Shown here piece by piece: positions 311-58,344 of a stretch of 64,000 nucleotides of DNA. The first letter of the stretch is position 1. Every line of letters begins with the position of its first letter. The notes beneath the pieces are model-generated. The model saw only the letters and a list, made by a program, of their open reading frames with translations, ran no database searches and was not told where the DNA came from. Both the position numbers and the translations under genes were made by a program. This DNA is from a virus. The DNA is taken from the IMG/VR virus record IMGVR_UViG_3300021492_000027; one strand, given 5' to 3'.

Positions 311-676
311 TTGAGGAAGTTAGAAAGGCTGAAGAAAGCTCTCTTTACATTCAATAAAGACGAACGTGGTACAGCGACGGTATGGGCTCTGGTGTCTGCA
401 TCAGTTGCAGTTGCGGCATTGGTGATTATATTTGCGATCGTTCCGATGATAGGCTATCAGGTGGATTCGGCTGTTCCAATACCTGCGGGTTCGCAGTGGA
501 ACGCAACGGAGAACACTCAGATAGTCAGTGGTGTAGGTCTGTGGGGTGCAATCGGTCCGCTCATCAAGTTAGTGGCAATAGTGTCATTCCTCGGTCTGGT
601 GATAGCGTCCATTATAATGCTTGCGGGTAGTACAAGTGAGGAAGCCACAGGTGGTAAGGGCGGTGGAGGCGTATAA
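311..676 (+). CDS. Major capsid protein, spindle-shaped-virus type (two hydrophobic helices, basic leader ending DERG)
   Basis: Two long hydrophobic helices (WALVSASVAVAALVIIFAIVP; LWGAIGPLIKLVAIVSFLGLVIASII) joined by a loop with an NAT sequon. GGAGGTG RBS before the TTG start, TATA-like TTTATATA about 55 nt upstream, strong 3' hairpin. Confidence 0.75.
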   Translation: MRKLERLKKALFTFNKDERGTATVWALVSASVAVAALVIIFAIVPMIGYQVDSAVPIPAGSQWNATENTQIVSGVGLWGAIGPLIKLVAIVSFLGLVIASIIMLAGSTSEEATGGKGGGGV

Positions 677-11729: not shown

Positions 11730-12128
11730 ATGTTAGGAATTAGGAAGAAAATGGGAAGAAAGAGGATAATAAAAAAAGAAGAAGAGGAAGAAAAAGTAGT
11801 AGCGAACGAAGAAGATGACGAGACGCCAGTGAAAGTGGAAGTGCCAAAGTCACCAAGAACTAACAAAAAGGATATTGTTAAGCAACAGCGATTAGAAGCG
11901 ACCGCGTATGAGCTAACTGAGACTGCGGTACTTTTGCGTAATATTTTATCCAGACCAAACGGTGGATACACCGATATGGAATATGCTGCGTTGGGGAATG
12001 CATTAATAGCAATAGCAGTAGCGAGCGAGAATGTGGAACGGTTTGTTGAGCTCAGAGACCAGCAACTAATGGAGGCTAAAACCCTTACTGAAGAAAAAGG
12101 AGAAGTAGCTGAAACCGAAGAGCAATGA
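11730..12128 (+). CDS. Hypothetical protein
   Basis: 132-aa ORF overlapping the next gene. Confidence 0.6.
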   Translation: MLGIRKKMGRKRIIKKEEEEEKVVANEEDDETPVKVEVPKSPRTNKKDIVKQQRLEATAYELTETAVLLRNILSRPNGGYTDMEYAALGNALIAIAVASENVERFVELRDQQLMEAKTLTEEKGEVAETEEQ

Positions 12129-15100
12129 AACGACAACAGCCAGTGGTGAGCGAACGCGTATATCGTGAGGTTATATCACGAGCAGAACAGGGTAAAGTAC
12201 CGTTATATCCTTCAGTAGTACGGAAAAAAGCGATTGAGCGTTACAAAACTGAAAAGATAGCAGAACTCAAAAGAGCACAGGAAGAGGCAGAACGGAAAAT
12301 AAGAGAAGAGCAAATAAGAAGAGAAGAACGGCGCAGGCGAGCTGAGCAGCAACGTCAAGAACAGTATAGAAAAGCAGAAGAAGCGAGTAAGGGACGAGTA
12401 CATACAGGTCAGTGGGTAAAAATCGAAGAAGGTGGCAAGTCAGTAAGTGTTAGGGACATGGCAGCATTGTCACCATCACAGGCAAAGGCTTTAGGGTTTA
12501 AATGGGGCACATTCAAAGCAAATCCCCAAACAGGTACTTTTGAGTTTGTTCCACTACCTACTCCTACTGAGCCAACCGAGCCAGAATATTACGGTCTTTT
12601 GAAATGGAAATACGAAAGCGGGTACTATAAAAATGTCCCGCAGATGGAGAAAATAATAAAGAAAGAGATAGAAGTAGGTGGTAAGAAATATGGCATAAAA
12701 GCACCAGCATGGGCAAGTGGTTTTGCAAAAGAATACGAAGCAGTAGCGAGACAGATAAAGCAAGCATATACAAAAGCTTCAGAATATGCAGCTAAGCCGG
12801 CACCATCAGAGCTAAAAAAAACTAAAAAAAAATCAGTACCGAAATCCATTACTAAGCAAAATATATCGCAATACCAAAGACTTACTACATTAGCGCAGCA
12901 TCCCGAAGTACAGGCATATATCAATAAAATGCAGAGTCTGCAAAGCATAAGTACGGAATTACAAACCCAAGGTGTAGAGATCGAACGACAAACCGAAGCA
13001 CATAACAAGTTGGTTACTGAACTGAATCGAACATTTGAAGAGTATCAGAAAGGTGGCTGGACACCTGAAGAAATAGCAAAATATAATTTATTAGCAGGCG
13101 CTGTAACAGGGATAGAAAAAGAATTAGAGCCAAAAATCACGAAATATGAAAAAAGAGCGAAAAAACTCGAAAAAACACTGAAACAGCCAAAATCGAAAGT
13201 AGTAAAAGAATTTGAAACACTGAGTAAATCATTTATGGAACAGTATTCACCAAAACAAATATCGCAGATAGAAAAAGCAATGATTGTTAGTTTCCCTGCG
13301 AAGAAACAGCCCATGCAAGAAGTAACTTTTACAGGGTTAGGAGAATACATAAAATCTACGGGTCGTGTACCTGTCTTTACTATACCTGAACAAGCGTATC
13401 CTCGTCCTCCAACGGCTATTGAGTCATTAATCGAGCCAATAAAGCGCCTAACAGGTCATTATCCTGAAAAAGAAAAAGCATTGAGTTCAACACTATCAAC
13501 ATATAGGAAACAGCAATTAGGGTTAGCGGAATCGTTGGGTATAATCCATAAAGAAAGGGGCAAACGATACATTATTGTGAACAACACGAAATATTACGAG
13601 GGCACAAAAGGGTTTGATGAGCATTTAGGAGAAGCGATACAGAGCAAACTATCTATAAAACCGCCACCTGAAGTCAAGAGAAGGCAGGAAGCGATACATG
13701 AAGCTGAACGCATAAAATCAGAGTTCATGAAGACTTATGGTGCTAAGCCCGGTGAGCCTATAATATTAGCAACGCCAGAATCACAGAAAGCGTTTGAACG
13801 AGTAAGGTCAGCATTTGAAGCCATACCAGAAGAATCAGCCACAACAAAAGCGTACTGGGAAGAAGCCAGAAAGATACGCCAAGCGCAACCACAAATAGAA
13901 GAGATTAATGTGTTAGCGAAACAGGTAACGAAGCAGGCAAAGGAGATGGAGCGGATACAAAAAGAAAGGTTGTTTGGTATTCCGTACAAGATAGAAACAT
14001 TAGAAGAGAAATATTCTCCTACAAAGAAGTTCATTCCACCAGTAACTCCTTATGCAGAAGTAAAAACACCAGAAGATTTAGTTAAAGCAATAAAAGAGAC
14101 ATATAAATGGGGAGGAACAAAGTTAACTAAGCAACAAGAAGAGGCGATAAGAGAGTCATTTAAGAAAGGAGAACGAATAAGTAAATCATACAGAAGGGTA
14201 TGGGGTTTACCATCTGAACCTTTTGAGTGGGAAAAGAAAGCAGCTCAGCTTACTGCTGGCATAAAAACCGGTCAGGTTGAAGAGATAAGAGAACATCCAG
14301 TGAAAGGAGCGATAACAGTTGCTTCGTTTGCTGCCTTACCACCTATGTTCAAAGGTGCGAAATATTTATGGGGTATACGAGCAGGTGAAACTGTGGGTAT
14401 GGCAGCAAAGCTACCGGTTTTGACAAAATATGCACCTAAGTTTGTTATGGGTGGTATGGGTGCAGGCTATGCGGGCGCAGTTGGATACGAAGCGTACAAA
14501 GCGCCAACATTACAATCAAAAGGAAAAGTATTTGGTAGAGCATCAGTAGAGCTCGCTGAGATGTCTGCTGGTGCATATATCGGTGCAAAAGCAATGCCTT
14601 CCTACCTTAAAAAAATAGAAGTATCGCAATTTGGTGCTAAAAAAATATACAGAGGATTGGGTATTGGAGAAGTTCCTCGTCCGGTCTTCGGTTATTATAA
14701 AGAAGAACTAAAAACACCTGATATTAATTTAGTGCGAAGAGATTTAGTTTTAGGTAAGAAGTTTCATGTCTTGGAGCAGAGCAAAAAGTTTGCCGAACGA
14801 ATAGCAGGTGGTAGAGTTTCCAAAAAACCAGCAAGACAATGGACACACGAAGACATAAAATCAGTTGAAGAATATTTGGCAATGCATCGTGCACGAGGTG
14901 GTGAAGCGCGTGCACAAAAATTTGAAGAACTTGAAAAGAAGAAAATGGCACTCAAAAAAGAGCCTTATGAAACAGTATTTACTTCAGGGATAGCGCCATC
15001 GGAAATATATGGTGGTGTTGTTCCATCACCGAGGATTAAAATGCCTAAGCTCCCACGTCCATCGCATTTACCACCAGAGATGATGACTTCTGGCATTATC

Positions 15101-16963
15101 AAAGGCGAAGAATTGAAAATATTCGGGCATAAATATCCTGAGCATGAAGTTCGTATGATAAACGGACTTATAGGCAAGCCACCGGGTGCAAGATTAGGAC
15201 TAACAGAAGGTCAGTGGGTATCAGGATTGACAGAATCAGAAGCGGCTCGAATAAAATCCATGAGCAAACCGCCAAAAGATATATTAACACAAGAATTAAT
15301 ATCTCGCATAATAAAACCTCATGCTTATAGTTCTGAGCAAACAGAGCGATTACTAAAATCATTAGAAGAGCCAAAAACAGGTGGTTATTATCATTTTTAT
15401 AAGAAGTCAGTTCTGACAATACCAGAAGATTTGCCGTTACAAATACGGTCTAAGCGTATAGGTTCTAAGATGGTAGGTGAGCCACCAAAAGACATGTTAA
15501 TGCAGGAACTTATCAAGCGGATAGTTAAGCCACAAGCTTATCCTGAACACACAACAAAGCACATTTTGAAGATGATGGAAGAGCCAAAGACAGGCGAATC
15601 TTATTATGAACTATATAAAAAGTCAATACTAACAGTACCAGAGGACTTACCATTACAAATACGGTTTAAGCGTTTAAAGCAATCAAAACAAGAAGTTTTA
15701 GGCTCAGCTACTGATTTTTTGAGGTCGTTGAAGTTCCCGCAGATATATGGTGAAGCGCCAGTGATAATCAAGTCAGAGCAGGTGCCACCTATACAGATAG
15801 GCAAAATATCTTCAATGAAAGATATGCGTATAAGATATGCAGGTGATGCGCGTGTAATAATAGGTGAATCAGAATCTTTGGCGCGTCAGGTAAAACGTCA
15901 GCAATCTTTATTTTTACAAAGGGTTTCCAAACAACAGTCACCAGAAGCAGCGAAGCTCATGAGCATAACAGGTAAAATATCAAAAGATAAAGTATTGGAG
16001 AATCTTAAAAGAAATTATGAGATAAAAAAGAGCTGGAAGAAAGAAGAGGAGAAGCTTTTAAAGGGTGGTGAATATGCTCGTAAGATGGTTGGCGATCAAG
16101 TTCTAATCCAGAAGACTACTACCAAAGAAGCAAAATCTGAAGCAAAAATACAAAAACCACAAGAGCCAAAACAAGAGCAAAAATTAGCTAAATCCATAGA
16201 AAAATCGTTTGAAACTGAGCGAGAAAAAGTAGTTAGCGGGCAAAAGGATATTATGAAGAGCTTGGTAGGTAGGGCTGTGTTTATAAAACAGCCTAAGCAA
16301 AAAAAGATGCAAAAACAATATCCAATTTTATTTCACGGAAAGGAAGATTATGAAAGAAGAATAGCTAAAAATTTTGAAGAGCTCATAAAAAAAAGCCAGC
16401 CTAAGTCGTTAGGCATACAGAAAGAGTTGCAAAAAACTCCACCAAGGTATGAGCCATTTGAGAGCTACAAATTCTTTTATGTTCCTGTGGAACTACCCAA
16501 AGAGAGACAATCATTTATCACTTCCTTTGCATCAGTTAAGCCCGGTGTAACACCTATACCTGCTACTGTTTCGGTCTCAAAGCCTAAATCTCCTGAAATG
16601 CCGCGTGAAAAGCTATATACTGAGAAGCCATATATACCGGAGATTGAGTTTCAGTATTTTCCTGTCCCACCACCCATATTTCCATCGAGAGTGAAACGAC
16701 CCCGCCGTCCCGGACGTTCACCCTATGAATGGTTTGAACGTCATCCTATGCCGACATTGAGAACGCTATTTGGTAGCGGTATAACACAAAAAACCGGCAT
16801 GGCGATAATGACCCAGCTAATAGGCGTAACACCAAAGAAAAGATCATCAGCAAAGAAAAAACCATCAGTATCGAAACGAAAGCACAAAGCAAAACCATCA
16901 TCAATACCTGTTAGTGGTGTGGGCATGATGACGCAACTAATAGGCGAAATGCCGAAAAGATAA
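12125..16963 (+). CDS. Very large basic, largely helical virion-module protein (1612 aa) with central hydrophobic segments and internal repeats
   Basis: Coiled-coil-like N-part, Gly/Ala-rich hydrophobic core, about 70-aa tandem repeat, basic C-terminal repeat. Confidence 0.75.
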   Translation: MKRQQPVVSERVYREVISRAEQGKVPLYPSVVRKKAIERYKTEKIAELKRAQEEAERKIREEQIRREERRRRAEQQRQEQYRKAEEASKGRVHTGQWVKIEEGGKSVSVRDMAALSPSQAKALGFKWGTFKANPQTGTFEFVPLPTPTEPTEPEYYGLLKWKYESGYYKNVPQMEKIIKKEIEVGGKKYGIKAPAWASGFAKEYEAVARQIKQAYTKASEYAAKPAPSELKKTKKKSVPKSITKQNISQYQRLTTLAQHPEVQAYINKMQSLQSISTELQTQGVEIERQTEAHNKLVTELNRTFEEYQKGGWTPEEIAKYNLLAGAVTGIEKELEPKITKYEKRAKKLEKTLKQPKSKVVKEFETLSKSFMEQYSPKQISQIEKAMIVSFPAKKQPMQEVTFTGLGEYIKSTGRVPVFTIPEQAYPRPPTAIESLIEPIKRLTGHYPEKEKALSSTLSTYRKQQLGLAESLGIIHKERGKRYIIVNNTKYYEGTKGFDEHLGEAIQSKLSIKPPPEVKRRQEAIHEAERIKSEFMKTYGAKPGEPIILATPESQKAFERVRSAFEAIPEESATTKAYWEEARKIRQAQPQIEEINVLAKQVTKQAKEMERIQKERLFGIPYKIETLEEKYSPTKKFIPPVTPYAEVKTPEDLVKAIKETYKWGGTKLTKQQEEAIRESFKKGERISKSYRRVWGLPSEPFEWEKKAAQLTAGIKTGQVEEIREHPVKGAITVASFAALPPMFKGAKYLWGIRAGETVGMAAKLPVLTKYAPKFVMGGMGAGYAGAVGYEAYKAPTLQSKGKVFGRASVELAEMSAGAYIGAKAMPSYLKKIEVSQFGAKKIYRGLGIGEVPRPVFGYYKEELKTPDINLVRRDLVLGKKFHVLEQSKKFAERIAGGRVSKKPARQWTHEDIKSVEEYLAMHRARGGEARAQKFEELEKKKMALKKEPYETVFTSGIAPSEIYGGVVPSPRIKMPKLPRPSHLPPEMMTSGIIKGEELKIFGHKYPEHEVRMINGLIGKPPGARLGLTEGQWVSGLTESEAARIKSMSKPPKDILTQELISRIIKPHAYSSEQTERLLKSLEEPKTGGYYHFYKKSVLTIPEDLPLQIRSKRIGSKMVGEPPKDMLMQELIKRIVKPQAYPEHTTKHILKMMEEPKTGESYYELYKKSILTVPEDLPLQIRFKRLKQSKQEVLGSATDFLRSLKFPQIYGEAPVIIKSEQVPPIQIGKISSMKDMRIRYAGDARVIIGESESLARQVKRQQSLFLQRVSKQQSPEAAKLMSITGKISKDKVLENLKRNYEIKKSWKKEEEKLLKGGEYARKMVGDQVLIQKTTTKEAKSEAKIQKPQEPKQEQKLAKSIEKSFETEREKVVSGQKDIMKSLVGRAVFIKQPKQKKMQKQYPILFHGKEDYERRIAKNFEELIKKSQPKSLGIQKELQKTPPRYEPFESYKFFYVPVELPKERQSFITSFASVKPGVTPIPATVSVSKPKSPEMPREKLYTEKPYIPEIEFQYFPVPPPIFPSRVKRPRRPGRSPYEWFERHPMPTLRTLFGSGITQKTGMAIMTQLIGVTPKKRSSAKKKPSVSKRKHKAKPSSIPVSGVGMMTQLIGEMPKR

Positions 16964-20773: not shown

Positions 20774-22075
20774 ATGGATGTATTAACTCTGTTGTATATG
20801 GTGATAGCGCTTTTCATAGCGCTATGGGTTGTTATAGTGCTATATTTGAAATACTGGCTGGATATCAAGAGATTTGCGCCAGAAGCAAAAGTCTTCAAAG
20901 AAGCACGTAAGAAGAAGCTGGCGATACTGGAGATAACCGATTCGGCAGGCAGGACAGCGTTTAAGCTCGGTACCAAACGCAAACGAAGCGATGTCCATTT
21001 CTCTGGTAGTGAGTACGGTATACAAATAGACCCGAAGTTGCAAGGCAATGCGCCAGAGAATAGGACGGTGGATGGAGTGCCAATCCATCACTTCTCTACA
21101 CAGTATCCGTTCCCGCTTAGTGACAAAAACGCACGAGCACTTGAGACAATAGTTGAACATGCAAGAGAGAACTATCCTGATCTTGGATTCCTGTCAGATG
21201 CGGACATAATAATACTCGCAGGTACGCCACGTGAGAATTTGGATCACGATGTGAACAACTACATCATGGAATACGAGCCAGAGGTCGAGCGTGAAGTCTT
21301 AACTAAGCAGTTCGCACTGAACACAAAAGTCAGTTCGCCATTTACACTTAGCTACGATATGGTAATGGAATTGAACCAGCATGGCATAGAGATAGGTTAT
21401 AAATCAGTCTCAAAAGGCGAGTTGGTTAAGTATCTCAATAGTTTATTCGACGAACTCAACCTGAAACTGAAGAGAGTCACATTTTCGTTCTCCAAAGATG
21501 ACAGGACCACACTCAACATCATAGACAAAAAAACAAAAGAGGTGAAAGCATCTCTCAAACGTGGTGATAATAATGTTTGTAGTCTTTCAATACCGGGTGT
21601 TTTGAATCCGGGCGTAGAGATAGGCATAATAGATAGTGATGGTGCGGTCAGTATACCTGATGCGGAACTCATCAGGAGCGACGATAACGAATACACATTA
21701 AAGACAAAAGATAACGATAAATACGCGATAATGAAAGAAGAGGACAGCAATGAATGGGCGGTTTATAAGCTCTCAAAAACGAAAGTGAAGCTCACCAAGG
21801 ACGATGTTGTAGAACAGATATCGCAACTCCAGAAAGAGATACAGACATTGCCGGTAAAGCACGGGTTCTTCTCATATACGTATGCGTTTAACAACTCGCC
21901 TATGGGCATGTTGGCACAGGACATGCAACAACTCACGCTATTGATACAGCGGATGGCACGTGAAGAGATGAAAAACGAATGGGAACGCTATGTGCCGTTG
22001 GCGTTCGGTGTGCTGATAATCATCGTGGGTATAATAGCGTTAGTGATTGTCTTAGGTGGTAGAGGAGGTGCATAA
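20774..22075 (+). CDS. Membrane protein with N- and C-terminal TM helices
   Basis: Hydrophobic termini, 433 aa. Confidence 0.7.
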   Translation: MDVLTLLYMVIALFIALWVVIVLYLKYWLDIKRFAPEAKVFKEARKKKLAILEITDSAGRTAFKLGTKRKRSDVHFSGSEYGIQIDPKLQGNAPENRTVDGVPIHHFSTQYPFPLSDKNARALETIVEHARENYPDLGFLSDADIIILAGTPRENLDHDVNNYIMEYEPEVEREVLTKQFALNTKVSSPFTLSYDMVMELNQHGIEIGYKSVSKGELVKYLNSLFDELNLKLKRVTFSFSKDDRTTLNIIDKKTKEVKASLKRGDNNVCSLSIPGVLNPGVEIGIIDSDGAVSIPDAELIRSDDNEYTLKTKDNDKYAIMKEEDSNEWAVYKLSKTKVKLTKDDVVEQISQLQKEIQTLPVKHGFFSYTYAFNNSPMGMLAQDMQQLTLLIQRMAREEMKNEWERYVPLAFGVLIIIVGIIALVIVLGGRGGA

Positions 22076-28664: not shown

Positions 28665-29231
28665 ATGTATCAGAAGAATGGGATAGTTATACTAACGCCA
28701 AGCGAATATGAAAAATTGAGAAGTGCAATGAAGGTTAGGCATAGAGTATTAAGTGATGCTTTGCTTTATACAGGTATGAGGTATACAGAGATGCAGAAAT
28801 TTGCCTTGAATCCTCACTGGTATGAAAGCGAAAAGAAAATTATTCACTTACCACGGATAGCAGACAGAAAGAGAAAGAGAGTAACACCTGATAGGTATAT
28901 CTATCTCACAAGGCTTGGTAAGGTTGCAATTGATAGGCTATTTGAAGACGGACACAAATATCCTTCATATGTAGCATTTGATGGGATGCTAAAGACGGCA
29001 ATAAAAAGGAGTGGACTGAAAGTGCCAGAAGATGCAACAATATCAGTAAAAACATTCAGGAAGACCTACGAGTCATGGTTAGTAGTAACTTATCCTGAGA
29101 GTATCCCTCTAATTGCTATGTGCCAAGGTCATAGTGAGCCAACAGCTATGAAGTACTATTTGAATATCCCATTTGATAGAGACGAGAAGAAGGAAATAAG
29201 AGAACATCTTGTGGGGTGGATAGTGGAATGA
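28665..29231 (+). CDS. Tyrosine recombinase, catalytic domain only
   Basis: LLYTGMRYTE (R), KTFRK (K-x-x-R), QGHS (H), AMKYYL (Y); no N-terminal core-binding domain. Confidence 0.8.
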   Translation: MYQKNGIVILTPSEYEKLRSAMKVRHRVLSDALLYTGMRYTEMQKFALNPHWYESEKKIIHLPRIADRKRKRVTPDRYIYLTRLGKVAIDRLFEDGHKYPSYVAFDGMLKTAIKRSGLKVPEDATISVKTFRKTYESWLVVTYPESIPLIAMCQGHSEPTAMKYYLNIPFDRDEKKEIREHLVGWIVE

Positions 29232-29524
29232 GTTTCAATTATGAACGTTTAATGTTTTTAACAAAATATGTGCCACACGGACTAATGGCTTCTAACAAAA
29301 AGAAAGAAGAAGTTAATAACGAGACACGAGTGCAAATACTGAAAAAATGGGATTATAGATGTTATCTATGTAATCGTGAGAAGCATTGCATAATTCATCA
29401 TCGTATACCTAACGGTGATGCAAGCGATGAGAACCTCTATCCTTTATGTGAGCAGTGTCATAAGCTCGTGCATACAATTTTATGGTTGGATGGTAAATGG
29501 ATGTTTCAAGGTTATAGGAGATGA
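29228..29524 (+). CDS. HNH endonuclease
   Basis: CYLC...HHRIP...NLYPLCEQCHKLVH. Confidence 0.85.
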   Translation: MSFNYERLMFLTKYVPHGLMASNKKKEEVNNETRVQILKKWDYRCYLCNREKHCIIHHRIPNGDASDENLYPLCEQCHKLVHTILWLDGKWMFQGYRR

Positions 29525-30144
29525 CAAAAATGGAAGTTGAGATAAAAGAATTTATTAAACATCACTACAAAAAATTACAATTTGGAAATGAACAGATAGA
29601 TTATATAGAAGAAGAGCATGATTTTAAAAATAACAACAAACATAGAGGAGCAACTATTGATTTTTTATGTAGAACTACCAATGAAAAATATATATTAATT
29701 GAGTGCAAAGGCGAAGTTGATGAAAAAAGTATTGGTCAGTTACTTAAATATAGAGTGTATGCTAAGAACGAATTAAAAGTAAAAGATAATGACATACTAC
29801 TGATACTATTAGGTTATAGCTTCCATAGTGATTTCTTTACTGCATATTCGTTAATAGAAAATTTGAATTTATTTAAGCCCTTTCAGTATATCTGTTATTG
29901 GTCATTTAGAGGAGATAAAAAGTTTTATCATGTTTTTTCTCTTCCTGATAAGAGAGAATATCAAATAATAACAGAAGTTGTAAAATCTCATCAACAAGTC
30001 AAGCGAGAATTAATTGAAGCAATTATGAGGAAGAGATGGGAACTAATAACATCAGGTGATTTGTTTATAACTCCAACAAAAGACGAAATTCAAAGACTTA
30101 TGGATATGACATTTAGTAATACAAAGAATGTCTACTATAAGTGA
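29521..30144 (+). CDS. PD-(D/E)xK nuclease (NucS/Mrr-like)
   Basis: IDFL...LIECK...SIGQLLKY. Confidence 0.7.
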   Translation: MTKMEVEIKEFIKHHYKKLQFGNEQIDYIEEEHDFKNNNKHRGATIDFLCRTTNEKYILIECKGEVDEKSIGQLLKYRVYAKNELKVKDNDILLILLGYSFHSDFFTAYSLIENLNLFKPFQYICYWSFRGDKKFYHVFSLPDKREYQIITEVVKSHQQVKRELIEAIMRKRWELITSGDLFITPTKDEIQRLMDMTFSNTKNVYYK

Positions 30145-30197
30145 ACTAAGGATATACTAATCTTTTTAGCTCATTATTATAAGAGCAAAAATGAAAA

Positions 30198-31106
30198 ATG
30201 AAACAAAAAGCGAGGCGACATAGTAGAGCATTTTTTGAGAAGTTAGTGCGTAACGAGTTGCACGATCTACCGGAATCGGTACAGCAAGAGACAATAGACA
30301 AACTCGTGCAGTACGATTGTCCTGTACTAACCGCACAAAAAACCCGGGATGTGCTCAATAAGATAAAATCACAATTCAATGAAGCGAATATCACCCCAAG
30401 CGAAAGCATCGGTATCGTAGCAGCGCAATCACTTGGCGAGAGCAGTACCCAGCTCGTTTTGAGAACATTCCATTACGCGGGTGTGGCATCTGAGTATATG
30501 CGTGGCGGGCTCGCGCGTGTGCAGGAGATAATAAACGCAGTAAGGCATATCAAAAACCCGTCAATGCGTATAGTGATAAAACATAAGCGTGCAGAAAAAA
30601 GAATAATCGAGCAAATAAAGAGTTTGAGGGGTGTTTCGTCACTAACAATAACACAAGAAGATGGTAAGACTGTCATATACACACGCGGTAGTAATTTGAG
30701 AGATGCGATGGAGATAGAAGGTATAAGTGTAATAACAAACAACATAAGAGAAATAGAGGATGTGTTGGGTATAGAGGCGGCACGTGCGGCGATAATAAAC
30801 GAGCTCTATGGCGTTTATAACTCATCAGGGTTGGATGTTGATATTAGGCATATTATCTTGATAGCGGATATGATGACCGTGAACGGCTATGTGGAGCCTC
30901 TGAATCGTGTGGGTGCGATGCGTCATAAGAAGTCAATCATAGCGAAGATGGCGTTTGAAGCGCCCATATCTAATCTATATACTGCGGCGGCGACTGGTGC
31001 TATTGACAGTTTGGAAGGCATAACCGAAAATATCATTGTCGGTAAACCCATTAATCGCGGTACTGGCAGTTCCTTGATAGTTTTAGAGTACAAAGACAAT
31101 AAATAA
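30198..31106 (+). CDS. rpo1C: Archaeal RNA polymerase subunit Rpo1C (A''), jaw-deleted
   Basis: GIVAAQSLGE..TQL.LRTFHYAGV (trigger loop), TNNIREIEDVLGIEAAR, DIRHI.LIAD.MT, AFE, GITENIIVGKPI..GTG. Confidence 0.92.
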   Translation: MKQKARRHSRAFFEKLVRNELHDLPESVQQETIDKLVQYDCPVLTAQKTRDVLNKIKSQFNEANITPSESIGIVAAQSLGESSTQLVLRTFHYAGVASEYMRGGLARVQEIINAVRHIKNPSMRIVIKHKRAEKRIIEQIKSLRGVSSLTITQEDGKTVIYTRGSNLRDAMEIEGISVITNNIREIEDVLGIEAARAAIINELYGVYNSSGLDVDIRHIILIADMMTVNGYVEPLNRVGAMRHKKSIIAKMAFEAPISNLYTAAATGAIDSLEGITENIIVGKPINRGTGSSLIVLEYKDNK

Positions 31107-31145: not shown

Positions 31146-31430
31146 ATGATAGAAAAGATATTTGGCACAAAGACACATATTAAGGTTGTTTTATTTCTAC
31201 ATAAGATTTCAGCAACGCGTAACCGCACAACAATAAAGGAGCTACATGAGCGGTTGCATATCTCCCGTCCTTCAATAATAAAGGTGATTAATGATTTGAA
31301 GCGTGCGCATATAGTTGTTGTGATGGGCACGACGAAGGCGCGCTATATCTTGATAGCGAACACGCCACAGCGCAGGGCGTTATGGCGTTTCATTAACGAT
31401 TTTGAGAAAAGTTTTTATCAATTACGGTAA
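31146..31430 (+). CDS. Winged-HTH regulator
   Basis: TIKELHERLHISRPSIIKVINDLKRAHIV. Confidence 0.7.
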   Translation: MIEKIFGTKTHIKVVLFLHKISATRNRTTIKELHERLHISRPSIIKVINDLKRAHIVVVMGTTKARYILIANTPQRRALWRFINDFEKSFYQLR

Positions 31431-31779: not shown

Positions 31780-31935
31780 GGAGGAGCTGGTGGCGGGCAC
31801 CCCTGAACCCGGACTGGGGCGCAAGTCCGGGGTTTGTAGGCTTATCTGGTGTGTTGCGCCAGCACACCAGAGGCTGAAAGGTAGGGGCTGGCTACCCCTG
31901 CTGAGGGTGCAAGGGTTCGACTCCCTTCTCCTTCG
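31780..31935 (+). ncRNA. tRNA-like RNA 1 with a three-hairpin insert
   Basis: 7-bp acceptor GGAGGAG/CTCCTTC, T-arm AAGGG-TTCGACT-CCCTT, 64% GC by hand count, three internal hairpins. Confidence 0.7.
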
Positions 31936-33025: not shown

Positions 33026-33104
33026 AAGAATCGAAGGTTGAGAAGAAAAATGAAAGGAAAATAGTGCCTAAGCGTCTCATTTTATGAGACTCTTCTTTAT
33101 TTTT

Positions 33105-33213
33105 GAAGGAGCTGTGGTCAGGCACATCTCCATGTATCCCATGGCTTTCTTTCCTCCCCTTAGATTTTTATGCTATATGGAGATGTGCAAGGGTTCGACT
33201 CCCTTCTCCTTCA
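33105..33213 (+). ncRNA. tRNA-like RNA 2 with a pyrimidine-rich insert
   Basis: Acceptor GAAGGAG/CTCCTTC, T-arm identical to RNA 1, 12-bp helix GCACATCTCCAT/ATGGAGATGTGC. Confidence 0.7.
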
Positions 33214-33233
33214 TCCTCTTAGGAGGGATAGAA

Positions 33234-33680
33234 ATGGTGGACATGAGTCGTGTATTTGAACAGGCTTGGGCGGAAGAGCCTGAGCCTGTGTGTCGTGTCG
33301 TAAGCGAAGAACTGCGAGAGCAAGAAGAGAAGCGTGAGAAGAAGCTTCTCTTCTTAGGGAAGAAAGAGGTTGTTTCGAATCGTAGTGTAGTGTATCGTAA
33401 TGGAGAGTTTTTTATAGAGGCTAATGGGTCTTCGTTTGTGATAAGACCCAGATGGGAAAAGGAATATCTAAGAATCAGGGGAAAGAGAAATAAGAAATAT
33501 ACGAAGTTTACGAGAGCACCATGCTCGATAGTGATACCAATGCCAGTTGTAAGAGAAAATCCGATGCTATGGTTTGAGCAGAATTACTTAAGTAATGTAA
33601 AGAGAAATCAGCAAGGGGCTTTCATAAAGAAAATCTGGGAGCATAGGTATGAATTCATGCCTGTAATGATGATGGGGTGA
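33234..33680 (+). CDS. Hypothetical protein
   Basis: Start moved to ATG 33234 behind the AGGAGG RBS; the longer predicted start runs through the ncRNA. Confidence 0.65.
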   Translation: MVDMSRVFEQAWAEEPEPVCRVVSEELREQEEKREKKLLFLGKKEVVSNRSVVYRNGEFFIEANGSSFVIRPRWEKEYLRIRGKRNKKYTKFTRAPCSIVIPMPVVRENPMLWFEQNYLSNVKRNQQGAFIKKIWEHRYEFMPVMMMG

Positions 33681-33967
33681 TAAAAATGAACAAGAGAAAG
33701 GAGCTTCGGGTTTTTGTTAACTCTGAACAAGTCAGCCGCTGGATTTTTTTAGAGCGGCTGGGACTTTGTTTCAGAATCACACCAAACAATGGTGGCTGGC
33801 AAAATGTAGAGTATAGCAGAGCCCTTGAAATATGTAAGCGTATAGTCTCAAGGGCTGATGGTGAAAAGGTTAGAGTAAGCGGTTCAATTGTTGATGAATT
33901 ACAGCGAGAAGAAATGGTTAGTAAATTGTTCAGTGAAGGAAAGCTTGTTTTGGGAGGTGTTCAGTAA
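33677..33967 (+). CDS. Hypothetical protein
   Basis: Coupled ORF in the early operon. Confidence 0.55.
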   Translation: MIKMNKRKELRVFVNSEQVSRWIFLERLGLCFRITPNNGGWQNVEYSRALEICKRIVSRADGEKVRVSGSIVDELQREEMVSKLFSEGKLVLGGVQ

Positions 33968-42474: not shown

Positions 42475-42506
42475 GCATCAATTTTTTATTTTTTTATTTT
42501 TTGTAT

Positions 42507-42580
42507 GGGCTCATAGCTCAGCAAGGTAGAGCGGCGGGCTTTTAACACGTTGGTCATGGGTTCAAATCTCGTCGAGCCCA
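42507..42580 (+). tRNA. trnK: tRNA-Lys (UUU)
   Basis: Cloverleaf GGGCTCA-TA-GCTC/GAGC-G-GCGGG-CT-TTT-AA-CACGT-TGGTC-ATGGG-TTCAAAT-CTCGT-CGAGCCC-A; mismatches at A7-C66 and G30-A40. Confidence 0.85.
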
Positions 42581-42597
42581 TAAAAAAGGAGGTAAAA

Positions 42598-56188: not shown

Positions 56189-56357
56189 TCTAATAAAAAT
56201 GACCAATATATGCAAAGTTTGTAATGGTAAAGGAGAAGTAGTAGTGTCATGTTTAATTACAAAAGACAGTAAATATATACCAATAAAGGTTTTTAGGTGC
56301 GTGGCATGCGGAGGTAGTGGAGTAAAGAATGACAGCACTGAAGAAGCTTTATCTTGA
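56175..56357 (+). CDS. DnaJ-type Zn-finger mini-protein
   Basis: CKVCNGKG...CVACGGSG. Confidence 0.55.
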   Translation: MGISNLIKMTNICKVCNGKGEVVVSCLITKDSKYIPIKVFRCVACGGSGVKNDSTEEALS

Positions 56358-58344
56358 TATAGAAGTTTGTAACCCTCCTAACAAGTTTCCGTTCGCAGAC
56401 AAAGCCGCATATCCTGTAATAGCGATAACAATCTTTGATGCATTAGAAAATCGTTTCTATTCGTTTTTAGTTGCTGATGCTGATATAGCACCAAAATCAA
56501 ATAACTGGCGTGTAAGTGTTTTAAGTAGTGAACGAGCGATGCTAACATATTTCAAACGCAAATTTGAGCAAATAGACCCTGATGTGATATTAGCATGGAA
56601 CATAGCATTTGACTATTTGTATATCCAGAACCGATTGAAACGGCTCGGTATAGAACCAATAGAAGAGCGGTTCCAGATACTCGATCTACTTGGTGCTTAT
56701 AAACAAGTGAAAAAAGGCGGCGTGTCCAGCTACAATCTCAAAGATGTTGAGCGTCAAGAGGGCATAAAACGCAAATTACCTGAAAGTATAGCGAAAGACA
56801 TACGAGAGTTTTATGAAGCGGGAGAATTTCGTCATATTCTTCTATACAACAAAGAGGATGTTGATGGCATAGTGAAACTTGATAATAAGCTTCAGCTCAG
56901 TCGGTTCTTCTTACACTTACGTGAGGTAATAGGCTTAGAACGGTTTGTACGTGGAATTAATGAGGGTAAGAGTCAAACATGGCAGATTTTCCATAATAGT
57001 GTGTTAGTTGATACTTTTATGTTTTTTTTATTGAAGCACAAAAACATCATTTTGCCAACAAAAGGACGCTATCAAAGCCAAAGTAAGGGTTCACAATACA
57101 AAGGTGCGATAGTTTTTGCGTCAGATCCTGGCATATATACCAATGTAGCCAACCTTGACATGTCGAAATTCTATCCTTCGATTTTGTTGAGTTTGAACCT
57201 CAGTCCTGAGATAACCAAAGAGAATGCCAATCGTCAAGGTATTATCCCATTTCTGTTAAGTCATTTGATTGAAGAGCGTACCAAGATAGAAACCGAACGT
57301 GCTAAATACGATCCGCAAAGTGCACAGTACCGTACCCTAACCGATAAACGTCAAGTGATAAAAGAGCTAATAAATAGCGTATATGGGTTTGTAGCGTTCA
57401 AGGGTTCGAGGTTATACTCAGATATAGGAGCGAAAGTGACAGAAATAGGACGCAAAGGTTTGAATTTTGTTAGGCAAGAAGCGGAGTGTCACGGTATGAA
57501 GGTCATTTATGGCGATACAGACGGTATTTTTTGTGTAGTGCAAGACGGCACAACCCATGAGCAGATAGCTGAAATAGCAAATGAGATAACACACAAGTTT
57601 GATGCCTTTTTTGAGAGCTTAGAGCCATTCACACAAACTCATTATTTCAAACTCGATTACGATTTGTTTTTCTCTAAATTGTTGCTATTAACAAAGAAAC
57701 GCTATGCAGGGTTAGTGACTTATGAAGATGGCAAGTCCGTCAATTACATAAAAACAAGAGGCATAGAGACAAGACGTGGCAATGCGCCATTATTAACCAA
57801 ACGTCTCCAAGAGAGAGTGCTTGAGTATATCTTCAATGGTAACATAGATGCTATATCGCCCTTAATTAAGAAACTCAGAGATGTGATATACGGGTTTGAA
57901 TTCAATGGCAAAAACTATCATGTAGTGGACGCAATGGCGATACCCATGGGCTTACAACAGCCACTGAACTACTATGGTGGGGTTGATAAGAACGGCAACA
58001 AAAAGGGTATCCCGCCACATGTCAGAGCTGCTGTAATAGCGAACAGGTTCTTAGGCAAGAATTTCGATTATGGTAGCAAGATCAAGACATTATATGTCCG
58101 TTCAATGCGATTACTTGAGCCAGTGGTATTGCCAAGTGGCGAGAAGATAACCATGACAGATGTGATAGGCTATGAAGATGTATCAGAGCTTGTCCGTTAT
58201 AAGAAGTTAGCGGAACGAGCTGGCGCGGAGCTATTACTCGATAAGGATAGAATGTTCAATGTTGTTGTGAGTGATAAAATCCAGCCAATTTTGGATGCAA
58301 TAGACGATAACTCTATAAAGCAAAAAAGTATTTTAGAGTGGTAA
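56329..58344 (+). CDS. polB: Family B DNA polymerase, exonuclease + polymerase part with C-terminal PIP box
   Basis: LDIE, WNIAFD, YNKED, DMSKFYPS, KELINSVYG, YGDTDG, KKRY, QKSILEW. Confidence 0.92.
   Translation: MTALKKLYLDIEVCNPPNKFPFADKAAYPVIAITIFDALENRFYSFLVADADIAPKSNNWRVSVLSSERAMLTYFKRKFEQIDPDVILAWNIAFDYLYIQNRLKRLGIEPIEERFQILDLLGAYKQVKKGGVSSYNLKDVERQEGIKRKLPESIAKDIREFYEAGEFRHILLYNKEDVDGIVKLDNKLQLSRFFLHLREVIGLERFVRGINEGKSQTWQIFHNSVLVDTFMFFLLKHKNIILPTKGRYQSQSKGSQYKGAIVFASDPGIYTNVANLDMSKFYPSILLSLNLSPEITKENANRQGIIPFLLSHLIEERTKIETERAKYDPQSAQYRTLTDKRQVIKELINSVYGFVAFKGSRLYSDIGAKVTEIGRKGLNFVRQEAECHGMKVIYGDTDGIFCVVQDGTTHEQIAEIANEITHKFDAFFESLEPFTQTHYFKLDYDLFFSKLLLLTKKRYAGLVTYEDGKSVNYIKTRGIETRRGNAPLLTKRLQERVLEYIFNGNIDAISPLIKKLRDVIYGFEFNGKNYHVVDAMAIPMGLQQPLNYYGGVDKNGNKKGIPPHVRAAVIANRFLGKNFDYGSKIKTLYVRSMRLLEPVVLPSGEKITMTDVIGYEDVSELVRYKKLAERAGAELLLDKDRMFNVVVSDKIQPILDAIDDNSIKQKSILEW

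What the first reader, a model, noticed from the sequence alone, without database searches (positions are those of the whole stretch)
30198..31106. Virus-encoded catalytic-core RNA polymerase subunit Rpo1C (A'') with the jaw deleted
Seen: unmistakable A'' motifs (trigger loop, GIEAAR, RHI.LIAD, ENIIVG.PI..GTG), and no other RNAP subunit in 64 kb. The protein is 302 aa against roughly 380-400 aa for cellular A''; only about 40 aa separate NPSM from IYTRGSNL, where cellular proteins carry the jaw. Known: A'' supplies the trigger loop, and TFS-family factors, including the infection-induced inhibitor TFS4 of Sulfolobus, dock at the jaw/lobe. Inference: the virus swaps its own A'' into host RNAP to make a hybrid enzyme insensitive to jaw-binding regulators, or poisons host transcription. 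I do not recall a described archaeal virus with a lone core RNAP subunit.
Basis: partly seen in the sequence, partly recalled or inferred. Interest (0 to 1): 0.85.

Follow-up and report, generated by a model that had tools for sequence, protein, structure and literature searches.

The report
Virus-borne jaw-less RNA polymerase A'' subunit
A large archaeal virus-like element carries its own shortened copy of one catalytic-core piece (Rpo1C/A'') of the host-type RNA polymerase and no other polymerase subunit in the 64 kb read, although archaeal viruses have been said to encode no recognisable RNAP subunit genes.

Summary
ORF 30198-31106 (+) encodes an intact 302-aa Rpo1C/A'' homologue (Pfam PF04998, E 6e-41; best solved relative Pyrococcus furiosus Rpo1C). 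The trigger loop has its normal length and its key residues. About 85-90 residues of the jaw are missing, and a ~40-residue remnant is left.

It is not a chimera or a decaying copy:
- It belongs to a monophyletic family (bootstrap 100) of 37 further protein clusters of 292-327 aa, all with the same deletion.
- The five relatives with usable flanks lie in dense, one-strand, virus-like contigs of 57-165 kb. None is in an rpoH-B-A'-A'' operon.
- dN/dS against the closest relative is 0.056.
- All 102 cellular A'' examined, including Methanophagales, keep the jaw.
- No fused or intermediate forms were found.

No other RNAP domain was found in 98 ORFs of the window, nor within 10 kb of five relatives. 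About 21 kb of this genome and most of the relatives' contigs could not be read.

A model places the protein on a Methanophagales A' (score 0.81, best control 0.00). That pass may reflect memory of solved complexes.

Most likely it replaces host A'' to give a virus-modified polymerase. This is inferred, not shown. The host is unidentified.

An overlapping window of the same genome had already noted this stretch. No other DNA in the scan had.

The parts
30198..31106 (+). Gene for a 302-aa short Rpo1C/A'' homologue (stop codon included)
   Evidence: ORF list; PF04998 E 6e-41; TIGR02389 260.6 bits against a cut-off of 420.65, in two stretches; archaeal Rpo1C chains are the top hits by sequence and by fold.
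30399..30536 (+). Residues 68-113: trigger loop with its flanking helices
   Evidence: Q85, L88, R89, F91 and H92 are invariant in all 38 family members. There are no gaps against Pfu Rpo1C across this stretch. R89 is the usual archaeal residue (87 of 102 cellular). The second hinge proline (GLPR in 97% of cellular A'') is Q/D/A/S in the four commonest states of the family.
30558..30686 (+). Residues 121-163: jaw remnant containing the deletion junction
   Evidence: 35-41 residues in the short family against 123-175 in 102 cellular A''. AF2 strands 122-127, 148-154 and 157-163 and helix 130-141, block pLDDT 82-86.
30738..31073 (+). Residues 181-292: conserved cleft and clamp-core blocks (GIEAAR, RHI.L.AD.MT, ENI..G....GTG)
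   Evidence: Invariant columns in A1. Aligned to Pfu Rpo1C 214-382. Residues 213-289 lie in the predicted interface with A'.
30160..30182 (+). A/T-rich TATA-like stretch 16-38 nt upstream of the ATG; possible own promoter with a short or absent leader
   Evidence: Read directly from the sequence. Inference only; no transcript data.
31146..31430 (+). 94-aa winged-helix (HTH_11/TrmB-like) gene immediately downstream, conserved next to the short A'' in relatives
   Evidence: Pfam HTH_11 E 1.3e-5. Homologues sit downstream of A'' in L001 and L002 (34-49% identity) and in L003 and L167.
33234..33967 (+). Two syntenic genes of unknown function (148 aa and 96 aa) shared by the A''-bearing elements
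   Evidence: blastp homologues in L001, L002, L164 and L165 at a similar offset from A''. Alignment A4. AF2 model pLDDT 74 with no PDB fold match at E 0.001 or better.

Best explanation
The gene encodes a functional, virus-lineage-specific version of RNAP subunit Rpo1C (A''). It is made during infection and assembles with host-encoded Rpo1N (A'), Rpo2 and the small subunits in place of host A''. This would give a hybrid polymerase with a working trigger loop, a minimal upper jaw and an altered trigger-loop hinge. The likely consequence is a polymerase with changed elongation or pausing behaviour, with loss of the docking surface used by TFS-type factors and other jaw-binding regulators, or both. 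That would favour transcription of the viral genome. Shown here: homology, intactness, the family-wide deletion, purifying selection, viral context and absence of partner subunits nearby. Inferred: assembly into host RNAP and every functional consequence.
For: 1. It is a real A'' with the catalytic trigger-loop residues invariant across 38 members and the loop length unchanged. 2. 66 of the 114 positions that are at least 85% conserved in cellular A'' are kept strictly, and many others change conservatively. 3. Purifying selection: 55 synonymous against 13 non-synonymous differences to the 97%-identical relative, dN/dS 0.056; 0.16 for L001/L002. 4. The family is monophyletic (UFBoot 100 / SH-aLRT 99) and diversified down to 41% identity. 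It sits in a conserved gene neighbourhood, so it is an old, maintained part of these elements. 5. A'' is not an autonomous fold. The monomer model is poor in the trigger loop and the C-terminal threads (pLDDT below 50), which is expected if the conserved blocks exist to contact partners. 6. No other RNAP domain in 98 window ORFs or within 10 kb of five relatives, so the partners are most simply the host's. 7. The complex model with Methanophagales A' 210-897 gives ipSAE 0.81, best of 3 controls 0.00. That mark was reached by 58 of 80 solved complexes and 2 of 110 mismatched pairs. Runs agree in at least 90% of contacts and partner pLDDT is at least 78. A'/A'' complexes are solved, so the pass may come from memory and shows likeness only. 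8. The upper jaw is where TFS4 docks and adds strands.
Against: There is no direct evidence of expression or of assembly. A'' is deeply threaded into RNAP, so exchange into pre-existing enzyme is unlikely, and the virus would depend on new synthesis of host A' and B. The host is unknown, so compatibility was modelled with an assumed partner. About 21 kb of this genome and most of the 57-165 kb relatives could not be read, so further subunits elsewhere are not excluded. Several residues that are nearly invariant in cells are changed family-wide (E202Q, H238I/V, G242K, hinge Pro). These could mean altered catalysis, but equally a different partner or role.
Confidence: 0.5

Rival explanations
1. 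Dominant-negative decoy. The short A'' binds host A' (or B/H) and yields dead or mis-assembled polymerase, which shuts down host transcription.
For: It keeps the A'-contacting blocks. It lacks a structural domain and has family-wide changes at some positions that are nearly invariant in cells. Archaeal viruses are known to inhibit RNAP, for example ATV RIP.
Against: Q85, L88, R89, F91 and H92 of the trigger loop are invariant in 38 diverged sequences and the loop length is kept. A decoy has no need of these. With no RNAP of its own in view, the element needs host RNAP for its own genes, so a stoichiometric poison of assembly would hurt it as well.
Confidence: 0.15
2. It is one subunit of a complete virus-encoded multisubunit RNAP. 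The other subunits would lie outside the window or be too diverged to recognise.
For: About 21 kb of this genome lies beyond the window. Only 10 kb on each side of relatives on 57-165 kb contigs could be read. Several large window ORFs have no Pfam family, for example 12125-16963 and 20774-22075. Jumbo phages have highly diverged split RNAP subunits (own knowledge).
Against: This A'' is 45-50% identical to cellular A'' in the conserved blocks. Co-evolving partners should be about as recognisable, yet no Rpb1 domain 1-4 or Rpb2 domain was found in 98 ORFs. The first-stage notes on the overlapping window report no other subunit (unchecked). No fused A'-A'' form of the short family exists in the protein collection.
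Confidence: 0.12
3. Target replacement against host defence. A host abortive-infection or stress factor inactivates or blocks host A'' at the jaw or trigger loop, and the virus supplies a resistant copy. This is a special case of the best explanation with a defined selective driver.
For: The jaw is the docking site of the infection-induced inhibitor TFS4. The deletion is precise and fixed family-wide. The same genome carries a tRNA-Lys(UUU), which could be read as the same kind of spare-part strategy; that is inference.
Against: No such host factor is known for the unidentified host. TFS4 is described only in Sulfolobales.
Confidence: 0.15
4. Assembly artefact, host-contig chimera or decaying pseudogene.
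For: None found.
Against: The exact protein is on a second, independent Logan contig and a 97% relative is on a third. 37 relatives share the deletion. dN/dS is 0.056. There are no ribosomal or rpo neighbours, unlike the host locus L168.
Confidence: 0.01

Closest known systems
Cellular archaeal Rpo1C / RNAP subunit A'' (TIGR02389; e.g. P. furiosus 8cro chain C, S. acidocaldarius 7ok0 chain C)
   Same: Same fold and motifs. The trigger loop has the same length and the same catalytic residues, and the cleft and clamp-core blocks are kept. A confident model sits on a cellular A'.
   Different: It is about 85-90 residues shorter because most of the jaw is missing. It scores below the equivalog cut-off (260.6 against 420.65 bits). 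It is not in the rpoH-B-A'-A'' operon and forms its own clade on a long stem, found only on virus-like contigs.
Virus-encoded multisubunit RNAPs (nucleocytoviricota RPB1/RPB2 sets; jumbo-phage split beta/beta')
   Same: A virus carrying a homologue of the catalytic large subunit of a cellular-type RNAP. IMG/VR matches to the family profile were giant-virus RPB1 at 28-44% identity.
   Different: Those viruses encode at least both double-psi-barrel subunits and make an autonomous enzyme. Here only the C-terminal third of the largest subunit is present in the DNA that could be read.
Viral and host regulators that act on the archaeal or bacterial RNAP jaw (TFS4, T7 Gp2) and the viral inhibitor ATV RIP
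   Same: The same battleground: control of host RNAP during infection, with the jaw as a regulatory surface.
   Different: Those are small factors that bind RNAP from outside. This is a homologue of a core subunit itself.
Virus-encoded copies of host basal transcription parts (rudivirus TFB homologues, phage sigma factors)
   Same: A virus-borne substitute for a host transcription component that would redirect the host enzyme. The vTFB of Italian rudiviruses is mentioned.
   Different: Those replace dissociable initiation factors. A'' is an integral catalytic-core subunit.

Membership tests
Archaeal Rpo1C/A'' (TIGR02389 equivalog, Pfam PF04998) | Rpb1 domain 5 homology | tested here: met
   PF04998 141 bits, E 6e-41, cut-off 28.5.
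Archaeal Rpo1C/A'' (TIGR02389 equivalog, Pfam PF04998) | Trigger loop with the conserved Q, L/M, R/N, F and H residues and normal length | tested here: met
   Invariant Q85, L88, R89, F91 and H92. No gaps against Pfu across this stretch. R is the majority archaeal state.
Archaeal Rpo1C/A'' (TIGR02389 equivalog, Pfam PF04998) | Full-length score at or above the curated equivalog cut-off | tested here: not met
   260.6 bits against a cut-off of 420.65, matched in two stretches.
Archaeal Rpo1C/A'' (TIGR02389 equivalog, Pfam PF04998) | Complete jaw domain between the trigger loop and the cleft blocks | tested here: not met
   38 residues against 123-175 in 102 cellular sequences. In 1.84 billion representatives every listed cellular hit except one 208-aa, probably partial, protein matches the profile in two or more stretches; only two short-family representatives match end to end.
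Archaeal Rpo1C/A'' (TIGR02389 equivalog, Pfam PF04998) | Encoded in the rpoH-rpoB-rpoA'-rpoA'' operon next to ribosomal protein and NusA genes | tested here: not met
   The canonical operon is seen in Methanophagales L168. It is absent around the window gene and six relatives.
Archaeal Rpo1C/A'' (TIGR02389 equivalog, Pfam PF04998) | Assembles with A' and B into an active RNAP | tested here: inconclusive
   The complex model passes (0.81 against 0.00), but like complexes are solved. There is no biochemical test.
Autonomous virus-encoded multisubunit RNAP | Both catalytic double-psi-barrel subunits (A'/beta' N-terminal part and B/beta) encoded by the virus | tested here: not met
   No Rpb1 domain 1-4 or Rpb2 family in 98 window ORFs or in the flanks of five relatives. 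About 21 kb of the genome was not visible.
Spindle-shaped archaeal viruses (context of the gene) | Small, highly hydrophobic two-helix major capsid protein | tested here: inconclusive
   ORF 311-676 has two long hydrophobic helices. The nearest Atlas clusters are viral. His1 capsid and VP1-like clusters score only 0.82, which is a lead only. No Pfam or PHROG hit.

The most novel reading that the evidence does not exclude
A lineage of large archaeal viruses rebuilds the host's RNA polymerase from within. It supplies its own jaw-less, hinge-altered Rpo1C, which replaces host A'' in newly assembled enzyme. The resulting hybrid polymerase would escape jaw-docking host regulators (TFS-type inhibitors or cleavage factors) or be tuned for the viral template. 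This would be the first case of a virus swapping an integral catalytic-core subunit of a cellular multisubunit RNAP rather than binding it from outside or bringing a whole enzyme.
Probability: 0.45. Interest if true: 0.9.

Novelty: new variant of a known kind. Interest (0 to 1): 0.75.

Why it matters
[quoted passage not shown] This family is a clear counter-example. I found no description of it in the ANME-1 virome paper, including its supplements, in a 2026 survey of 3,708 archaeal viral genomes, or in four full-text searches.

It also provides a natural jaw deletion that evolution has kept working. That makes it a ready probe for what the archaeal and Pol II upper jaw does in elongation, pausing and TFS/TFIIS docking. 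The recombinant archaeal RNAP systems that already exist could test this directly.

If subunit swapping is confirmed, it adds a new strategy to the known ways viruses take over transcription.

Tried and rejected
- **Public virus and genome collections.** The short family was not found in IMG/VR: the single-protein scan found nothing and the profile scan found only giant-virus RPB1. It was not in the INPHARED phage set, nor among the best 80 loci of one genome per GTDB species, which gave only full-length cellular A'' and bacterial beta'.
- **Whole genome and whole contigs.** No whole genome is held for the window. The relatives' full contigs could not be searched.
- **Host or virus naming through PolB.** Relatives at about 60% identity lie on contigs up to 180 kb, all unnamed. 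The closest named viruses are haloviruses at about 24%.
- **Bacterial-like Arg in the trigger loop.** I considered the R in 'LRTFH' as a bacterial-like oddity and rejected it. R is the majority state in archaeal A'' (87 of 102).
- **Recent capture from Methanophagales.** The tree puts that clade inside Syntropharchaeia/Methanomicrobia with 100/100 support, away from the viral clade. The AU test of viral family plus Methanophagales as one clade gives p 0.039, a marginal rejection only. The apparent neighbour in the unrooted tree is a long-branched pair (a Iainarchaeum MAG and an unclassified archaeal MAG), which may be long-branch attraction.
- **Conserved syntenic 148-aa ORF as a possible jaw substitute or RNAP factor.** AF2 model pLDDT 74, with no PDB fold match at E 0.001 or better.
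- **Structural genes.** PHROGs gave nothing for the presumed structural genes.

Full report
**What is there**

The ORF at 30198-31106 (+) is intact and encodes 302 aa.
- It matches Pfam RNA_pol_Rpb1_5 (PF04998) at E 6e-41.
- It matches the NCBIfam A'' equivalog TIGR02389 at E 2e-77. The score is 260.6 bits against a curated cut-off of 420.65, and the match is split in two stretches.
- Archaeal Rpo1C chains are the best solved relatives, led by P. furiosus 8cro_C at E 3e-61. Query 14-139 aligns to chain residues 8-135 and query 129-294 to 214-382, so about 78 residues of the cellular chain have no counterpart.
- A fold search with the AF2 model again returns archaeal Rpo1C chains first.

**The deletion**

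I aligned 38 short proteins with 102 cellular A''. The cellular set included DPANN lineages, Asgard, Thermoproteota, methanogens and three named Methanophagales proteins.

The segment between the NPSM proline and IYT is 35-41 residues in every short protein and 123-175 in every cellular one. What remains (residues ~121-163) models as a compact strand-helix-strand-strand unit with block pLDDT 82-86. The jaw is therefore reduced to a stub rather than cleanly excised.

The trigger loop is not shortened, and Q85, L88, R89, F91 and H92 are invariant. The Arg in 'LRTFH' is the normal archaeal state.

I tested this:
- The second one (GLPR, 97% in cells) is replaced by Q/D/A/S in the four commonest states across the family.
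- The first (GEP) is kept in most members and lost only in the window protein and a few others.

Of the 114 positions that are at least 85% conserved in cellular A'', 66 are kept strictly.

**A family, not a one-off**

The protein collection holds 37 clusters of 292-327 aa that align end to end at 41-97% identity. Cellular A'' follow only after a drop from 238 to 226 bits, and there the best local alignment covers 58% of the query.

In a library of 1.84 billion representatives, only two short-family representatives match the family profile as one continuous stretch (440 and 432 bits). All other listed hits score 297 bits or less. Every one of those matches in two or more stretches, apart from a 208-aa protein that is probably a fragment. 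There are no intermediates. No longer or fused forms of the short family exist.

A maximum-likelihood tree (LG+C20 PMSF, 64 rows) recovers the short family as one group with UFBoot 100 / SH-aLRT 99 on a stem of 0.67 changes per site. It lies outside every sampled cellular clade. Methanophagales A'' sit with Syntropharchaeia and Methanomicrobia at 100/100. Forcing the viral family and Methanophagales together costs 23 log-likelihood units, AU p 0.039. That is a marginal rejection, so a very old origin near that lineage is not firmly excluded.

**Selection**

- Against the 97%-identical relative on L003 there are 55 synonymous and 13 non-synonymous differences, dN/dS 0.056.
- L001 against L002 gives 0.16.

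The gene is maintained as a protein.

**Context**

The window is 91% coding on the + strand. It carries:
- a replication module with PolB, RFC, a PCNA-like protein, primase and helicases, alongside nucleases, dUTPase and several DNA methyltransferases;
- large BNR/PKD/DUF2341/beta-helix proteins;
- an integrase-like gene and one tRNA-Lys.

ORF 311-676 is a small protein with two hydrophobic helices. Its nearest Atlas clusters are viral, and His1-capsid and VP1-like clusters appear only as weak leads. A spindle-shaped virus is plausible but not shown.

Of 98 ORFs scanned, PF04998 is the only RNAP domain.

Six other contigs carrying family members show the same dense, one-strand, mostly unannotated gene arrays. 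Five of them are 57-165 kb long, and none of the five has another RNAP subunit within 10 kb. The sixth is a short 8 kb contig. A further Logan contig of 18.8 kb carries the exact window protein.

They share synteny with the window: A'', then a 94-aa winged-helix gene, then two unknown ORFs. By contrast, a Methanophagales genome has A'' in the canonical rpoH-B-A'-A''-L7Ae-NusA-S12-S7 operon. A host-contig chimera is excluded.

**Limits**

- No whole genome is held.
- Earlier notes indicate that the genome runs at least about 21 kb beyond the window.
- Only 10 kb on each side of the relatives could be read.
- Read mapping was not available.
- The host is unidentified. Neither the A'' family nor the PolB relatives carry organism names, apart from one apparently mis-binned 'Cloacimonas sp. 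4484_209' entry.

**Mechanism**

A'' is an extended subunit that makes sense only inside RNAP. The monomer model is disordered exactly in the trigger loop and the C-terminal threads.

The blocks kept under selection are those that line the active-site cleft and contact A'. A complex model with residues 210-897 of a Methanophagales A' gave:
- ipSAE 0.81 in three runs, against 0.00 for the best of three controls;
- a mark reached by 58 of 80 solved complexes and 2 of 110 mismatched pairs;
- agreement between runs in at least 90% of contacts, and partner pLDDT of at least 78.

A'/A'' complexes are solved, so this pass shows likeness to them. It does not show that this copy binds.

Taken together with the absence of partner subunits in the DNA that could be read, the simplest reading is that the viral protein replaces host A'' in newly assembled polymerase (confidence 0.5).

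The upper jaw is where TFS4 docks its N-terminal zinc ribbon and adds strands. The bacterial jaw is the target of T7 Gp2. Loss of that surface, or altered elongation through the changed hinge, is the most likely selective benefit. This step is inference.

- **Decoy.** A pure decoy is less likely because the catalytic trigger-loop residues are invariant.
- **Full viral RNAP.** This cannot be excluded until complete genomes are read.

**Comparison with what is known**

The protein works like an A'' and descends from one. As a member of the cellular equivalog it fails three defining tests: the score cut-off, the jaw and the operon context. It is not part of a recognisable autonomous viral RNAP.

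Pilotto et al. [quoted passage not shown] The ANME-1 virome paper and its held supplements do not mention RNA polymerase. A 2026 survey of 3,708 archaeal viral genomes does not mention RNAP subunits either. Full-text searches found no description.

I therefore rate it a new variant of a known kind, with high interest for archaeal transcription and virology.

The same stretch was noted independently in an overlapping window of this genome (e1-5813543), not on other DNA.

Noticed in passing
window 31146-31430 (+): A 94-aa winged-helix protein (HTH_11/TrmB-like) sits directly after the short A'' here and in relatives L001, L002, L003 and L167. It is a candidate transcription factor that may act together with the viral A''.
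   Followed up: partly
window 28665-30144 (+); L003 5111-5674; L164 5750-6589: The genes just upstream of the short A'' are nuclease or recombinase genes that differ between relatives. Here they are integrase-like, HNH and PD-(D/E)XK; in L003 a faint GIY-YIG hit; in L164 a resolvase plus a faint NUMOD3 hit. This looks like free-standing homing endonucleases nesting next to a conserved gene.
   Followed up: no
window 31884-31935 and 33105-33216 (+): Two intergenic stretches give weak matches to the Rfam tmRNA model (14.2 and 18.6 bits against a gathering score of 47, E 0.01 and 1e-4). The long ORF call 33084-33680 probably starts at 33234, as called on L167.
   Followed up: partly
window 56329-58344 (+): The PolB has relatives at about 60% identity on unnamed metagenome contigs of up to 180 kb. 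It is only about 24% identical to the closest named viruses (haloviruses HF1/HF2/HRTV). The whole lineage seems to be undescribed.
   Followed up: partly
window 311-676 (+): A 121-aa protein with two long hydrophobic helices. The nearest Atlas clusters are all viral, and His1-capsid and VP1-like clusters appear as weak leads (0.82). It is a possible major capsid protein of a spindle-shaped virus.
   Followed up: partly
window 33234-33967 (+): Two ORFs (148 and 96 aa) are conserved in synteny with the short A'' in four relatives. The 148-aa protein models as a beta-sheet plus helices (pLDDT 74) and has no PDB match.
   Followed up: yes
window 42506-42581 (+): A single tRNA-Lys(UUU) gene inside the replication module.
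   Followed up: no
P0122-P0130, P0137, P0139 (cellular A'' of Methanocaldococcus and Methanotorris): Many cellular A'' of Methanococcales carry inteins (PF14890/PF14528) and reach 710-873 aa. This is unrelated to the viral family, but it shows that A'' is a frequent target of mobile endonuclease elements.
   Followed up: no
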